This document shows positions 24,486-44,970 of a stretch of DNA of 64,000 nt, piece by piece. The first letter of the stretch is position 1. Every line of letters starts with the position of its first letter. Below the pieces are notes generated by a model that saw only the letters and a list, made by a program, of their open reading frames with translations, searched no databases and had not been told where the DNA came from. The position numbers and the translations under genes were made by a program. Source of the stretch: Phycisphaerae bacterium (GTDB lineage Bacteria; Planctomycetota; Phycisphaerae; Sedimentisphaerales; UBA12454); assembly GCA_041661665.1 (NCBI GenBank), contig JBAZTW010000004.1, positions 5,121 through 69,120 on the forward strand. The letters are read 5' to 3'.

Positions 24486-25940
24486 TTATTTTTTTTTGTT
24501 CACGGCATTTAGGCTGGCAAGAAGCGCTTTGGCTTTGACAAGCGTTTCGTGCCATTCGGCATCCGGTTTTGAATCGGCTACGATTCCACCGCCGGTCTGG
24601 GCGTAAGCAACCCCCGCCTTGACAAGAATCGTTCTTATCACAATGTTGAGACTGGCGTTGCCTCTTAAATCAATCCAGCCGATTGAACCTGTGTAAATGC
24701 CGCGAGCGGTCGGTTCAAGAGAATTTATTATATTCATCGCGCTGATTTTCGGCGCGCCGCTAATCGAGCCGCCGGGGAAAACAGCTTTAAGGCAATCGAT
24801 GAAATCCAGACCGGGTTTTATTTCCCCTTCGATTGTCGAAATGGCGTGAAAAACCGTCGCGAAAGTTTCAATTTCCCGCCGGTCTGTTACCTTTATTGAG
24901 CCGGGCTTGCAAATTCTTCCGAGGTCGTTACGCTCAAGGTCGGTAATCATATCAAGCTCGGCCAATTCCTTTTCGCAGGCGAGAAGCTCGGCGTAATTTT
25001 TCGCGTCGATTATTTTGTTGCCGGTTCTCGGTCTTGTGCCTTTAATCGGACTGGTTGTAATTGTGCCGGCGTTTATGTTTATAAACAATTCGGGCGATGC
25101 GCTGATTATCTGATAATCTCCTGCATCAATAAAAGCTGCGTAAGGACTGGGATTGAATTTATTCTGCCATAAAAATAATTCCACAGAATTAAAGGTGTCA
25201 GGAACCTTTATTTCTTTACTAAACCGCTGGGAGAAGTTTATCTGATAGACATCGCCATCGTAAATATACTTTTTTACCTTCGCAATGGACTGAAGATAAT
25301 AATCCTTTGTCATATTGGATTGAAATGCTTTAGTTGTCATTTCGAGCGAGCCGCAGGCGAATCGAGAAATCTGTTTTTCAATAGATTTCTCCCCCGCTCT
25401 TGTTTCGCCCACCGCCCCGCTTCGCGTGAAACGCGGGGGCTGGCAAGAAGCTGCGGGGGTCGAAATGACAGTTGCTGCCTGATTTAAAATATCTTTAAGC
25501 TGGGCAATTTTTTCGCTGCCATTCGGCTCAATCGCAAAAAGATGAAAGCATTTTTCCAGACTGTCAAAGCAGATTACCTTATCGTAGAAACACAATCGTA
25601 TCAGCGGCAATTTCAAATCATCTTTTGCGGGCAAAATAATGGTTTCAATATACTGATTGAGGTCGTAGCTGAAAAAACCAATCCAGCCGATAGTAAAAAT
25701 ATCGTTATCAATTGGACAATCGGTTTTTTCGATACGATACTTGCTTAAAACCGTTCTTAATTTTTCAAAAGGGTTTTTATCGCCGATTTTAAATTCAAAA
25801 ATTTCGGCTGGTTCGGCGGCGAAATAACTGCATCTGCCGCCTGTGAGAATCGCAGGATTTGGCAATGATGAAAAAAAGTGTGCCAGTGAAGAAACTTCTA
25901 CATCGGCGAATATTTTAGCGTTAGTCAGAATTCTGGCCAT
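24486..25940 (-). CDS. pabB: Aminodeoxychorismate synthase component I, carrying an in-frame repeat insertion
   Basis: 'GDVYQINFSQRF', 'SASPELF', 'PIKGTRPR', 'AELDMITDLERNDLGR', 'FPGGSISGAPK', 'RGIYTGSIG'. Confidence 0.9.
   Translation of the reverse strand: MARILTNAKIFADVEVSSLAHFFSSLPNPAILTGGRCSYFAAEPAEIFEFKIGDKNPFEKLRTVLSKYRIEKTDCPIDNDIFTIGWIGFFSYDLNQYIETIILPAKDDLKLPLIRLCFYDKVICFDSLEKCFHLFAIEPNGSEKIAQLKDILNQAATVISTPAASCQPPRFTRSGAVGETRAGEKSIEKQISRFACGSLEMTTKAFQSNMTKDYYLQSIAKVKKYIYDGDVYQINFSQRFSKEIKVPDTFNSVELFLWQNKFNPSPYAAFIDAGDYQIISASPELFININAGTITTSPIKGTRPRTGNKIIDAKNYAELLACEKELAELDMITDLERNDLGRICKPGSIKVTDRREIETFATVFHAISTIEGEIKPGLDFIDCLKAVFPGGSISGAPKISAMNIINSLEPTARGIYTGSIGWIDLRGNASLNIVIRTILVKAGVAYAQTGGGIVADSKPDAEWHETLVKAKALLASLNAVNKKK
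25336..25470. repeat. Inverted doublet of GTCATTTCGA..GAGAAATCT palindromic elements inside pabB
   Basis: gtcatttcgagcgagccgcaggcgaatcgagaaatct (25336-25372) and inverted agatttctc...gtcgaaatgac (25383-25469) with nested hairpins. Confidence 0.8.
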
Positions 25941-26785
25941 TATACAGGATTTGCGGTCTGGGCTGGTTCGGTTTGTTTTTCGGTCTTTGGGGTTTTGCCC
26001 TGCAAAAATTGGGCAATCAGGCGGTAATCCTCAGCGCCATTGCAGGTCGGCTCATATTCAAAAATCGTTTTGCCATAGCTTGGCGCTTCGGCAAGTTTGA
26101 TATTTCTGCGAACGAAAACAGGAATAACCTCCGCCCTGCTCCAGGGGCAGTCGGTTTCCCTTGCGCCGGCAAGAAATCCGTCGATATTGCTTTTCACTTC
26201 TTCCGAAAGCGAGGTTCTGGTGTCGAACATACAAAGCAAAATGCCGCTTACTTTCAGGGCAGGATTGATTCTTCTGCTGACGAGCGAAACGGTCTGAAGC
26301 AGTTTGCCCATACCCTGCAAAGCGAGGAAATGCGGCTGCAAAGGAATAATCACCTCATCGGCAGCGGCAAGTGCATTGAGCGTCAACAGACCCAGCGATG
26401 GCGGGCAGTCGATAATCAGATAATCGAAATTGTGTTTGCTTCGGGCGATTGCTTCGCGAAAAATTATTTCTCTGCCGACAACGCTTACAAGTTCGCTTTC
26501 TGCGCCGACAAGGTCGATATTTGCGCCGAGCAGGAAAAGGTTAGGCCTTATTTCGGTTATACAGTCGTCAAATTCCGCAGAATCGGTTAATAATTTATAA
26601 GCGCCGCCCTCGATACTGTCGGGCTCAACGCCGAGATGAATTGTAAGATGCGATTGCGGGTCGAAATCAGCGACGACGACTTTTGCGCCATTTGCGGCAA
26701 GAGCGGCAGCGATATTGACAACTGATGTTGTTTTGCCCACTCCGCCTTTTTGGTTTAACATTGCTATTTTACGCATTTTTGCCAT
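25940..26785 (-). CDS. ParA/Soj family ATPase
   Basis: 'NQKGGVGKTT', 'DFDPQ', 'IDCPPSLG', 'LAEAPSYG'. Confidence 0.92.
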   Translation of the reverse strand: MAKMRKIAMLNQKGGVGKTTSVVNIAAALAANGAKVVVADFDPQSHLTIHLGVEPDSIEGGAYKLLTDSAEFDDCITEIRPNLFLLGANIDLVGAESELVSVVGREIIFREAIARSKHNFDYLIIDCPPSLGLLTLNALAAADEVIIPLQPHFLALQGMGKLLQTVSLVSRRINPALKVSGILLCMFDTRTSLSEEVKSNIDGFLAGARETDCPWSRAEVIPVFVRRNIKLAEAPSYGKTIFEYEPTCNGAEDYRLIAQFLQGKTPKTEKQTEPAQTANPV

Positions 26786-30025: not shown

Positions 30026-30165
30026 ACACCCTGCGCTTTCGCTTGGGCTCTGAATGACACCTGCGGTATTCTAAAGCAGAAAACTTAAAAAACCACTTTT
30101 TTTTTATTTTATAACAAGTAGAATAGCCGCCGGCATCTAATCAGAGCCCAAGCGACAGCGCAGGG
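30026..30165. repeat. Inverted pair of CAGAGCCCAAGCG..AGCGCAGGG elements (family C)
   Basis: 28-nt inverted repeat with one mismatch at 30026-30053 (-) and 30141-30168 (+). Confidence 0.8.
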
Positions 30166-30188
30166 TGTGGTTTATTGGAGCAGTATTT

Positions 30189-31043
30189 ATGAACAAGGTG
30201 TTTTTTAATAATAGTATCGTTGATTCCGCCCAGGCTATGATAAACCATAGCGACACGGGTTTTTTGTATGGCGCAGGGCTGTTCGAGACTATGCGGACGG
30301 CAAACGGCGTGGTTTTCGCCCTGGAAGACCATCTCGACAGACTTTTTAACAGCGCAGCCAAACTTGGTATAAAACTGACAGGCGATAAAAAGTTTTGCAC
30401 CGACGCGATATATCAAACTCTCAAAGCCAACGACCTGAAAGAGGCTCGGCTTCGTCTGACCGCAACCAGCGGCACGGTCAACGCTGACGATGAAGCAGTG
30501 CCGACGCTGCTTATTACCGCGGTAAATTTTGAACCTTATCCGAAAGATTATTATCAAAAGGGTGTGCTGGCGGTTTTAAGTCCGTACAGGCAAAATTACA
30601 CTGACGGGCTGGCGGGACATAAAACGACAAATTATTTTTCAAGATTGCTCGCCCTTTCGCAGGCTCGGCAAAAACACGCCGCAGAGGCGCTGTGGTTCAC
30701 CTTTGAAGGCTTGCTGGCCGAGGGAAGCGTCAGCAATGTTTTTGTTGTGAAGGATTCTATCGTTTATACCCCCCCGCTTGAGATTGGCGTTCTGCCAGGC
30801 ATAGCCAGAAAACACGTTTGTGCTCTTGCAATGAAAAATTCGCTCAAACTCGAAGAGAAAGATTTGACGATTAAAGAGCTTTTGGCCGCTGATGAGGTCT
30901 TTATTACGAATGTTATTATGCAGGTGATGCCCGTGATAAAAATCGAGGCGCACGATGTAAAAGACGCAAAACCGGGAGCGATTACAAAGAAAATAATGAC
31001 TCTTTACGCAGAGCATTTTAACAAAGAAACTGGAATGGCATAA
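30189..31043 (+). CDS. Class IV aminotransferase (4-amino-4-deoxychorismate lyase PabC/IlvE-like)
   Basis: 'YGAGLFETMR', 'HLDRL', 'HKTTNY', 'EGSVSNVF', 'LPGIAR', 'ADEVFITN'. Confidence 0.88.
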   Translation: MNKVFFNNSIVDSAQAMINHSDTGFLYGAGLFETMRTANGVVFALEDHLDRLFNSAAKLGIKLTGDKKFCTDAIYQTLKANDLKEARLRLTATSGTVNADDEAVPTLLITAVNFEPYPKDYYQKGVLAVLSPYRQNYTDGLAGHKTTNYFSRLLALSQARQKHAAEALWFTFEGLLAEGSVSNVFVVKDSIVYTPPLEIGVLPGIARKHVCALAMKNSLKLEEKDLTIKELLAADEVFITNVIMQVMPVIKIEAHDVKDAKPGAITKKIMTLYAEHFNKETGMA

Positions 31044-44727: not shown

Positions 44728-44970
44728 TTTCTCTACCCTTACTGGGGACTTGCGCGTTTTTATCGAAATTTGACCGAAAATTCTTTTATGCGTTTTTGTA
44801 AGTGCTTATTTGATATGGAGAAAAATTTTTTAATTTTTTTTATCCGCGCAAGTTTTTACTTGCGCAAATGGCTGATATTTTGTCATTTCGACCAAAATGA
44901 GTCCCGATTTTCGGGACGAATGAAGCGGAGAAATCTATTTTAAATCCCCCGTTTAATCTCACTATTTCCC

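What the first reader, a model, noticed from the sequence alone, without database searches (positions are those of the whole stretch)
25336..25470. About 45-codon palindromic repeat doublet translated in frame inside pabB
Seen: two inverted copies of a GTCATTTCGA...GAGAAATCT element, one containing further nested hairpins, lie inside the ORF. They encode roughly VISTPAASCQPPRFTRSGAVGETRAGEKSIEKQISRFACGSLEMT between the N-terminal and chorismate-binding domains, with the frame preserved. Known: Rickettsia palindromic elements create new peptide segments this way. Inference: repeat-driven protein evolution in a planctomycete folate enzyme.
Basis: partly seen in the sequence, partly recalled or inferred. 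Interest (0 to 1): 0.65.

Follow-up and report, generated by a model that had tools for sequence, protein, structure and literature searches.

The report
Palindromic repeat translated inside pabB
A 135-base hairpin-forming DNA repeat sits in frame in a floppy linker of a planctomycete folate-pathway enzyme; about half of related bacteria carry some repeat in that linker, and this copy arrived by recombination from another genus.

Summary
Window 25335-25470 is a 136-nt palindrome with perfect 11-nt ends, a central hairpin and a nested GC-rich hairpin. It is read as 45 codons (aa 158-202) of an intact 484-aa PabB-type gene.

It is one copy of a dispersed, modular repeat family built from GTCATTTCGA...GAGAAATC units. 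The units occur singly and as inverted doublets, and most copies are intergenic.

AlphaFold gives a confident enzyme core and a disordered insert. The rest of the gene is under purifying selection (dN/dS about 0.15). The insert therefore looks like a tolerated passenger, as Rickettsia palindromic elements are.

- The same roughly 20-aa linker is a hot spot. About half of 60 family-level PabB sequences carry repeat-derived peptides there, of seven repeat types.
- This allele is a mosaic. About 285 nt (aa 146-240, element included) matches another genus at 89-91%, against 68-69% elsewhere (Fisher p = 1e-11). An independent assembly confirms it.

No transposase partner was found. Y1/RAYT genes flank other repeat types, and the link to GIY-YIG genes is weak. 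This is a known kind of event in a repeat family that I could not find described.

The parts
24486..25940 (-). PabB-type aminodeoxychorismate synthase component I gene (484 aa), intact, with the element in its inter-domain linker
   Evidence: ORF and translation. Pfam Anth_synt_I_N 55-130 and Chorismate_bind 212-469. Best solved relatives are PabB 7pi1/7qu9/1k0e. The PIKGT lysine K300 is invariant in 25 orthologues. dN/dS is 0.07-0.16 outside the linker.
25335..25470 (-). Whole palindromic doublet (136 nt with the T/A extension; 134 nt from GTCATTTCGA to TCGAAATGAC), read as codons 158-202
   Evidence: Perfect 11-nt terminal inverted repeat. Fold -67 kcal/mol, z -5.15. Translation. pLDDT below 50 for residues 164-201.
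25336..25371 (+). Plain 36-nt unit GTCATTTCGAGCGAGCCGCAGGCGAATCGAGAAATC. It is the 3' unit in the coding sense and encodes ..QISRFACGSLEMT
   Evidence: Matches the unit pattern. This variant is unique in the genome. It is 95-97% identical to units in G005 pabB, G033 and G026.
25364..25391 (.). Central hairpin GAGAAATC-loop-GATTTCTC joining the two units. Its 12-nt loop lacks the in-frame TAA that the usual TTTAAA-type loops would give
   Evidence: Inverted repeat I4. Loops of other copies. Intergenic TTTCGA doublets have 0-1 of six frames open; the two intragenic ones have 3.
25384..25469 (-). Inverted 86-nt unit (the 5' unit in the coding sense) with a composite hairpin. It encodes VISTPAASCQPPRFTRSGAVGETRAGEKS
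   Evidence: The outer stem CCCCCGCAGCTTCTTGCC is shared with copies at G000:C11:18758 and C24:2643. The composite module is 82-93% identical to copies in G011, G021, G006, G005 and G013.
25408..25443 (.). Nested GC-rich mini-hairpin of about 36 nt in the loop of the larger unit. It is itself a separate small repeat
   Evidence: It occurs alone at 89-97% identity in G021 (six sites), G011, G016, G002 and G005. Copies at C11 and C24 carry a different loop here.
25221..25505 (-). Recombination tract (aa ~146-240, including the element) derived from a lineage of another genus (g4: G005/G019/G013-like)
   Evidence: Sliding-window identity. Informative sites inside the tract are 1 own-genus: 21 other-genus, against 139: 39 outside, Fisher p = 1e-11, and the tree topology switches. 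Only this genome shows the pattern.

Best explanation
The segment is a non-autonomous, hairpin-forming repeat element. It is an inverted doublet of two GTCATTTCGA...GAGAAATC units, with a second small palindrome nested in one arm. It belongs to a modular repeat family dispersed through Sedimentisphaerales genomes.

It lies in the surface linker between the N-terminal and chorismate-binding domains of a PabB-type enzyme. Its length is a multiple of three and it has no stop codon in the frame used. It is therefore transcribed and translated as a disordered 45-residue loop in an enzyme that still works. This is a tolerated passenger, behaving as Rickettsia palindromic elements do.

The linker is a permissive hot spot. 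In the family it has been occupied, trimmed and re-occupied by at least seven repeat types.

In this genome the element-bearing linker, with about 36 nt upstream and 115 nt downstream, was imported from a different genus by a short homologous-recombination (gene-conversion) tract.

Shown: the anatomy, the repeat family, the intact frame, purifying selection on the enzyme core, the disorder prediction, the hot spot and the mosaic tract.

Inferred: that the protein is made and active, that the loop is functionally neutral, and how the element first entered the linker.
For: - Anatomy and structure.
- Repeat family: 56 exact terminal 10-mers against about 5 expected. There are 23 exact units in the genome and none for the reversed control pattern. 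There are about 10 full doublets of 80-147 nt with interchangeable inner hairpins.
- Mostly intergenic: 20% deep in long ORFs against 61% for random positions.
- Other in-frame cases in the same genome: HypF, confirmed by Pfam with the insert splitting HypF_C_2, and a 404-aa ORF on contig C22.
- The orthologue linkers differ. Of 60 family-level PabB sequences, 27-29 are native (23 plain, 4 with an extra SPRLWRTS-type insert, and two or three unclassified native-like ones). 25 carry one of the other six repeat types in the linker, so 29 carry some repeat-derived peptide. All are open.
- AlphaFold2: mean pLDDT 85 and pTM 0.85, with residues 164-201 below 50.
- dN/dS is 0.16 against the same-genus orthologue.
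- Catalytic-motif residues are invariant.
- Mosaic tract.
- An independent MEGAHIT assembly from another ENA record (ERZ27249449) has the same gene. It differs at 5 of 1455 nt, none in the element, and is 99.9% identical over 7.4 kb.
Against:
- No mobilising enzyme was identified. The five Y1/RAYT-like genes of the genome are flanked by other repeat types. Thirty Y1 loci in relatives are not enriched in these units (0.07 per kb, against 0.11 genome-wide).
- No target-site duplication is evident. Filled and empty alleles within the genus differ by replacement of native codons, not by clean insertion. The entry mechanism is therefore unknown.
- The exact donor of the tract is not among the sampled genomes; the best match is about 91%.
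- NCBIfam PabB equivalogs score below their cut-offs, so the name PabB rests on family level plus the PIKGT motif.
Confidence: 0.8

Rival explanations
1. The element transposed directly into pabB in this lineage. The resemblance of the flanks to another genus would then be coincidental or due to selection.
For: Same-genus relatives (P0003, P0005, G001) already carry GTCATTTCGA units at the same left junction. The outer stem of the larger unit is shared with two other copies in this genome. The central loop begins like the same-genus alleles (GAGAAATCTATTG.AA).
Against: Of 22 informative sites in the flanks of the element, 21 match the other genus, including synonymous sites. Outside the tract the counts are 139 own-genus to 39 other-genus (p = 1e-11), and the tree topology switches. 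The 36-nt unit variant is unique in this genome and near-identical to the one in G005 pabB.
Confidence: 0.1
2. The insert is a selected functional module. It could be a new regulatory or interaction loop of PabB, or an mRNA hairpin that tunes translation, co-translational folding or mRNA stability between the two domains.
For: The hairpin is very stable (-67 kcal/mol). The frame is kept open in every element-bearing orthologue. The central loop lacks the stop that the usual loops would give. The insert is identical in two strains.
Against: Peptide sequence and length differ completely between close relatives. Seven unrelated repeat types and a native linker all coexist in the family. The insert is predicted disordered. 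What is conserved is the DNA repeat shared with intergenic copies, not a pabB-specific peptide. An open frame is simply the condition for the gene to survive. The two strains are 99.9% identical overall, so their identical insert carries no information.
Confidence: 0.07
3. It is an artefact or a dead gene: a chimeric metagenome assembly, or a pabB pseudogene whose frame is open by chance.
For: The genome is a MAG of 98 contigs with 3.9% contamination. Mosaic genes can arise from co-assembly of related populations.
Against: An independent assembly from another ENA record reproduces the whole locus, including both tract junctions. dN/dS is 0.16. Catalytic residues are conserved. The full-length fold is predicted with confidence.
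Confidence: 0.03

Closest known systems
Rickettsia palindromic elements (RPE-1 to RPE-10; Ogata et al. 2000, as summarised in PMC10969869)
   Same: Both are hairpin-forming repeats of about 100-150 bp with many genomic copies. Some copies sit in frame inside unrelated housekeeping genes, add a peptide segment at a structurally tolerant site and leave the gene functional.
   Different: The phylum differs (Planctomycetota, free-living sediment and groundwater bacteria). There is no sequence similarity. There is no CGTC tag, which PMC3733652 reports for RPEs. The element is built as an inverted doublet of short units with swappable and nested inner hairpins. Only a minority of copies are intragenic, whereas nearly half are for some RPE families.
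REP / REPIN elements with RAYT (TnpA-REP, HUH-Y1) transposases, including the intragenic REPs catalogued by Di Nocera et al. 2013 (PMC3733652), Bertels & Rainey 2011 (PMC3116915) and Quentin et al. 2018 (PMC6006769)
   Same: Both have short palindromic units that occur as singlets and as inverted doublets folding into a long hairpin. Both are mostly intergenic and come in several families per genome. Intragenic in-frame copies are known, and different REPs at about the same site of recB in two Xanthomonas species have been reported. In this genome true REPtron-like arrangements exist for other repeat types.
   Different: The GTCATTTCGA units lack the GTAG or CGTC tag. Neither in this genome nor in 30 Y1 loci of relatives do they flank a Y1 transposase gene. 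The units are longer (33-57 nt) and have a variable inner hairpin.
Bacterial MITEs (for example Nezha, Correia and ERIC elements; review PMC10969869)
   Same: Both have perfect terminal inverted repeats, a length near 130 bp, no coding capacity for a transposase, multiple dispersed copies and occasional in-frame fusions with host ORFs.
   Different: No target-site duplication is evident. No parent insertion sequence with matching ends was found. The modular unit structure is more REP-like than MITE-like.

Membership tests
Rickettsia palindromic elements (RPE) | Repeated palindromic element present in many copies in the genome | tested here: met
   56 terminal 10-mers against about 5 expected, 23 exact units, and about 10 full doublets.
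Rickettsia palindromic elements (RPE) | In-frame insertion in protein-coding genes that remain intact | tested here: met
   pabB, HypF and the ORF on contig C22.
Rickettsia palindromic elements (RPE) | Sequence relationship to RPE families, including the CGTC terminal tag (PMC3733652) | tested here: not met
   The termini are T|GTCATTTCGA with no CGTC tag. The host is a planctomycete. It works like an RPE but is not a member.
REP/REPIN-RAYT (REPtron) | Short palindromic units occurring as singlets and inverted doublets | tested here: met
   Single units and doublets are listed.
REP/REPIN-RAYT (REPtron) | Conserved 5' tetranucleotide tag GTAG (or CGTC) | tested here: not met
   Units start (T)GTCA. 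In the same genome, GTAG- and CGTC-tagged repeats are other families.
REP/REPIN-RAYT (REPtron) | A Y1 (RAYT) transposase gene flanked by the same units | tested here: not met
   The five Y1 genes of the genome are flanked by other repeats or by none. Thirty Y1 loci in 25 relatives hold 0.07 units per kb, against 0.11 genome-wide.
MITE | Terminal inverted repeats | tested here: met
   The 11-nt arms are perfect.
MITE | Target-site duplication | tested here: inconclusive
   AGTT flanks this copy on both sides, but the other copies show no duplication. Filled and empty alleles differ by replacement of native codons.
MITE | Parent autonomous IS with matching ends | not tested
   Only the flanks of Y1 and GIY-YIG genes were inspected. 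No systematic search of IS ends was made.
PabB (aminodeoxychorismate synthase component I) | Anth_synt_I_N plus Chorismate_bind architecture | tested here: met
   Pfam E = 7e-14 and 3e-84.
PabB (aminodeoxychorismate synthase component I) | Active-site lysine in the PIKGT motif (K274 of E. coli PabB; TrpE has PIAGT). This rests on established knowledge, not on a test here | tested here: met
   SPIKGTRPR is present, and I299, K300, G301 and T302 are invariant in 25 orthologues. A separate TrpE-like paralogue lies at G000:C6:53548-54378.
PabB (aminodeoxychorismate synthase component I) | Score above the NCBIfam equivalog cut-off | tested here: not met
   TIGR00553 scores 311.8 against a cut-off of 328.4, and TIGR01824 scores 331.3 against 408.55. 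The insert and linker lower the score. Sources name relatives either 'para-aminobenzoate synthetase component 1' or 'anthranilate synthase component I family protein'.

The most novel reading that the evidence does not exclude
The PabB inter-domain linker may be a lineage-wide landing pad in which palindromic repeats actively drive their own turnover. Resident hairpins would attract new repeat insertions and provoke breaks. Those breaks would be repaired by short-tract recombination, sometimes with DNA from another genus. Element-bearing linker cassettes would then move horizontally between genera inside an otherwise vertically inherited essential gene. Linked to this, the GTCATTTCGA/GAGAAATC family would be mobilised by an enzyme that is neither a RAYT nor a classical IS transposase.
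Probability: 0.2. Interest if true: 0.7.

Novelty: new member of a known kind. Interest (0 to 1): 0.45.

Why it matters
This case shows that the Rickettsia-style phenomenon is also common in free-living Phycisphaerae: selfish palindromic DNA read through as protein. Inter-domain linkers of housekeeping enzymes there can turn over rapidly through repeat insertion and replacement.

The finding has three practical consequences:
- Such segments depress equivalog scores. Here PabB falls below the NCBIfam cut-offs.
- They create apparent 'novel domains' that are only translated repeats.
- They can carry recombination tracts that distort single-gene phylogenies.

The locus also gives a clean natural series for studying how such repeats enter genes and how much loop a chorismate-utilising enzyme tolerates. 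The series runs from the native linker through one unit to a doublet, a doublet with a nested element, and other repeat families.

Tried and rejected
- GIY-YIG nuclease as mobiliser. In this genome, two of four small GIY-YIG genes (C1:64224, C17:11614) sit in clusters of the units. In 30 GIY-YIG loci of relatives, most have no unit. The density there is 0.35 per kb, or about 0.24 per kb once the genome's own C1 locus is excluded (my arithmetic from the counts), against 0.11 per kb genome-wide. The link is not supported as general.
- RAYT/Y1 as mobiliser: no association was found.
- The idea that the 'native' linker IEDEQIFKPCDSFDI is a decayed copy of the ..IEKQISRFACGSLEMT unit. I considered this because of a loose similarity. 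I rejected it because the native motif is conserved in 27-29 of 60 sequences, and a native-type linker also occurs in the window's own genus (P0002, P0007).
- General exchange of linker cassettes among all lineages: only the window's genome shows excess identity in the flanks.
- Rfam: no match.
- Intrinsic-terminator-like sites in or beside the element: none.
- An exact look-up of the window's own protein in public contigs returned nothing. A 99.6%-identical cluster member did return a contig.

Full report
OBSERVATION

Window 25335-25470 reads TGTCATTTCGA...TCGAAATGACA. The two 11-nt ends are perfectly complementary, and an inner pair GAGAAATCTGTT / AATAGATTTCTC lies at 25364-25391. Read on the + strand, the element has these parts:
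- a plain 36-nt unit, GTCATTTCGAGCGAGCCGCAGGCGAATCGAGAAATC (25336-25371);
- a 12-nt loop;
- an inverted 86-nt unit (25384-25469), whose inner hairpin carries a further GC-rich hairpin (about 25408-25443).

As RNA in the coding sense it folds at -67 kcal/mol, with z = -5.15, and none of 200 shuffles folds as well. GC reaches 0.58 in the element, against 0.33-0.42 beside it.

The minus-strand ORF 24486-25940 (484 aa) runs through it. This lies between Pfam Anth_synt_I_N (55-130) and Chorismate_bind (212-469).

THE HOST GENE AND ORGANISM

Relatives found in named genomes are MAGs of Planctomycetota, Phycisphaerae, Sedimentisphaerales. The same-genus genome is 'Planctomycetes bacterium GWC2_45_44'.

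The protein is a chorismate-utilising enzyme:
- Its best solved relatives are PabB of Bacillus subtilis and E. coli.
- It has the PIKGT lysine typical of E. coli-type PabB (established knowledge; the residue is invariant in 25 orthologues).
- The genome has a separate TrpE-like paralogue.
- NCBIfam PabB equivalogs score just below their cut-offs.
- A class IV aminotransferase gene (the PabC/IlvE family) lies 4 kb away at 30165-31043.

I therefore call it PabB-type, with the caveat that the NCBIfam cut-offs are not reached.

A DISPERSED, MODULAR REPEAT FAMILY

The own genome is 2.31 Mb, 98 contigs and 44% GC.
- GTCATTTCGA and its complement occur 56 times, against about 5 expected.
- The unit pattern GTCATTTCGA-N12-42-GAGAAATC occurs 23 times, and the reversed control pattern never.
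- Units occur singly and as inverted doublets of 80-147 nt. The small inner hairpins differ from copy to copy.
- Sister variants exist: GTCATTGCGA (44 copies) and GTCATTCCCG (58 copies).

Only 11 of the 56 terminal 10-mers lie deep inside long ORFs, against 61% of random positions. Several of those 11 are chance matches in MutS, SecA and other genes. The family is therefore mainly intergenic.

Genuine in-frame cases besides pabB include:
- HypF, where a 37-aa insert splits the HypF_C_2 domain, and a second repeat-derived stretch SRLRGNDKEIAASSRSGTPRND lies upstream;
- a 404-aa ORF on contig C22 with a 48-aa insert of the GTCATTGCGA type.

The modules of the pabB copy are themselves repeats shared across the order:
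- The 36-nt unit recurs at 95-97% identity in G005, G033 and G026.
- The composite hairpin recurs at 82-93% in five genomes.
- The nested mini-hairpin occurs alone at many sites.

Across 150 other Planctomycetota the exact unit is rare and patchy. One distant family holds 14 near-identical copies. Rfam has no match.

THE INSERT IS A TOLERATED LOOP

AlphaFold2 on a 25-sequence alignment gives mean pLDDT 85 and pTM 0.85. Confidence is high throughout except for residues 164-201, which fall below 50.

Outside the linker, dN/dS is 0.16 against the same-genus orthologue (dS 0.55) and 0.07-0.15 against others. Catalytic-region residues are invariant.

There is no terminator-like site in or beside the element.

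Intergenic TTTCGA-type doublets have 0-1 of six frames open. The two intragenic ones have three. The usual central loop (..TCTATTTAAACAG..) would place a TAA stop in the pabB frame, and the pabB copy has ..TCTATTGAAAAACAG.. instead. Only stop-free copies of 3n length can persist in a gene that is needed.

THE LINKER IS A HOT SPOT

Orthologues from other families of the order have a short, unrelated linker (..ISVARPRQGDLSRIDFSQIQAN..). Many members of the own family share a conserved native linker (..NIEDEQIFKPCDSFDIREFRSN..).

Among 60 family-level sequences from the 5.8-billion-protein collection:
- 27-29 are native: 23 plain, 4 with an extra SPRLWRTS-type insert just before MTK, and two or three unclassified native-like ones;
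- 25 carry one of the other six repeat types in the linker, so 29 carry some repeat-derived peptide.

Seven repeat types are seen:
- GTCATTTCGA 5' unit (VIST..EKS);
- GTCATTTCGA 3' unit (..LEMT);
- GTCATTCCCGC (VIPAE..);
- GTCATTGCGA (CHCEE..TKQS);
- a GTTTAGC-type pair of hairpins (CLAAA..GAN);
- a GTAG-tagged type (GEPMCSP..GQTRRSAPT);
- the SPRLWRTS type.

The DNA shows the corresponding palindromes. Close relatives differ. G005, G019 and G013 carry three different states, and G013 keeps the last 12 nt (GCTCGAAATGAC) of an older element next to a newer one. Every allele is open.

In the own genus, P0002 and P0007 are native. P0003 and P0005 each carry a different unit. G001 carries both of those units in tandem. 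In each case the repeat replaces native codons rather than being cleanly inserted, and no target-site duplication is seen.

The GTAG-type and GTTTAGC-type repeats are the ones that flank Y1 transposase genes in the own genome, at C9:19710 and C12:4188. Those are REPtron-like arrangements of the kind described in PMC3733652 and PMC6006769.

THIS ALLELE IS A MOSAIC

Along most of the gene the window is 82-96% identical in nucleotides to its same-genus relative G001, and 60-78% identical to genus g4 (G005, G019, G013). From about aa 146 to aa 240 the relation inverts: identity is 83-93% to g4 and 49-72% to G001.

At sites where G001 differs from a unanimous g4, the counts are as follows:

| Region | Window matches own genus (G001) | Window matches g4 |
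|---|---|---|
| Inside the tract | 1 | 21 |
| Outside the tract | 139 | 39 |

Fisher's exact test gives p = 1e-11. A tree of the 150 flanking nucleotides places the window with G019 and G005. The remaining 1125 nt place it with G001. The alignment shows the switch directly, synonymous positions included. No other pair of genomes shows such an excess.

The tract is about 285 nt (window about 25221-25505) and contains the element.

This is not an assembly chimera. A MEGAHIT contig from another ENA record (ERZ27249449, 52 kb) carries the same gene. It has five nucleotide differences, none in the element, and is 99.9% identical over 7.4 kb.

The near-identity of the 36-nt unit between the window and G005 pabB is thus explained by import of the whole linker cassette. 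Because such units are also 95% conserved between families, the unit alone would not have been proof. The flanks are.

WHAT MOVES THE FAMILY IS UNKNOWN

The five Y1 genes of the genome are flanked by other repeats or by none. Thirty Y1 loci in relatives are not enriched in these units.

Two of four small GIY-YIG genes of the genome lie in clusters of the units. The codons for the nuclease's YIGMT motif (ATCGGAATGAC) resemble the unit terminus. In relatives, however, most GIY-YIG loci have no unit. I treat this link as unsupported.

COMPARISON WITH WHAT IS KNOWN

The behaviour matches Rickettsia palindromic elements (summarised in PMC10969869). It also matches the intragenic REPs catalogued by Di Nocera et al. 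(PMC3733652), who note different REPs at about the same site of recB in two Xanthomonas species. The architecture of singlets and inverted doublets resembles REPINs (PMC3116915).

Membership in each of these families fails on a defining feature:
- no CGTC or GTAG tag;
- no associated RAYT gene;
- no target-site duplication and no parent IS, as a MITE would have.

The element works like an RPE or REPIN, in a repeat family that I could not find described.

Earlier notes of this scan report the same kind of event in other Phycisphaerae genes (valS, mqnE, lysS, gatB, mfd, an ABC permease), including 'other repeats in the same loop'. They are unchecked AI notes and I used them only as leads. They suggest that the phenomenon is general in this class, which lowers the surprise of this single case.

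VERDICT

This is a real, well-defined in-frame palindromic repeat of a known kind.

Noticed in passing
G000:C2:104300-105257 (own genome, outside the window): The HypF carbamoyltransferase gene carries two in-frame repeat-derived segments. One is SRLRGNDKEIAASSRSGTPRND, of the GTCATTCCCG/GTCATTGCGA type. The other is a 109-nt GTCATTTCGA doublet read as LSFRPEFVPKIGTNEAEKSVLNRFLDSGDKVASTRND, in a different phase from pabB. It splits the Pfam HypF_C_2 domain.
   Followed up: partly
G000:C22:29028-29170: A 143-nt GTCATTGCGA-type doublet with nested elements is read as 48 aa (VIARSPSGTTKQS...PKGLAMT) inside a 404-aa ORF that has no Pfam match.
   Followed up: partly
G000:C1:64026-64772 and C17:11292-11829: Small GIY-YIG nuclease genes are embedded in clusters of ten or more GTCATTTCGA/CGGAATGAC units. 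The codons of the nuclease's YIGMT motif (ATCGGAATGAC) resemble the unit terminus. The association did not hold in relatives.
   Followed up: yes
G000:C9:19710-19886, C12:4188-4442, C49:4267-4626: Y1 (IS200-like/RAYT-like) transposase genes are flanked by their own palindromic repeats: GTAG-tagged TGTAGGGGCGAAC..., CGTC-tagged CGTCGTTTAGCAG..., and TGTAGGGTGGACAG... These are REPtron-like arrangements. The first two repeat types are the ones found in the pabB linker of other family members.
   Followed up: partly
window 44882-44935 (G000:C4:50002-50055): A single GTCATTTCGA...GAGAAATC unit lies in intergenic DNA of the same window and is followed by a T/A-rich run. Many single units in the genome end ...GGAGAAATCTTTTTAAAT, which suggests a position at gene ends.
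   Followed up: no
L041/L064 (G021) and proteins P0018, P0026, P0038, P0040: A second, separate 10-aa insert, PPSPRLWRTS, is encoded by another short palindrome (CCGCCTTCGCCAAGGCTATGGCGGAC). It sits directly before the conserved MTK of PabB in alleles that otherwise keep the native linker.
   Followed up: no
G079 (another family of Planctomycetota), 14 sites: There are fourteen near-identical copies of a 35-nt variant unit, GTCATTTCGATGAGGCTTTATGCCGAAGAGAAATC, in one distant genome, while almost all other sampled Planctomycetota have none. The distribution is patchy and may reflect horizontal spread of the repeat family.
   Followed up: no
window 25940-26785 (-) and 25938-25942: The pabB start codon overlaps the stop codon of an upstream ParA/CbiA-like ATPase gene. 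This gene order (NusB, ParA-like, PabB) is kept in the independent assembly and in same-genus contigs.
   Followed up: partly
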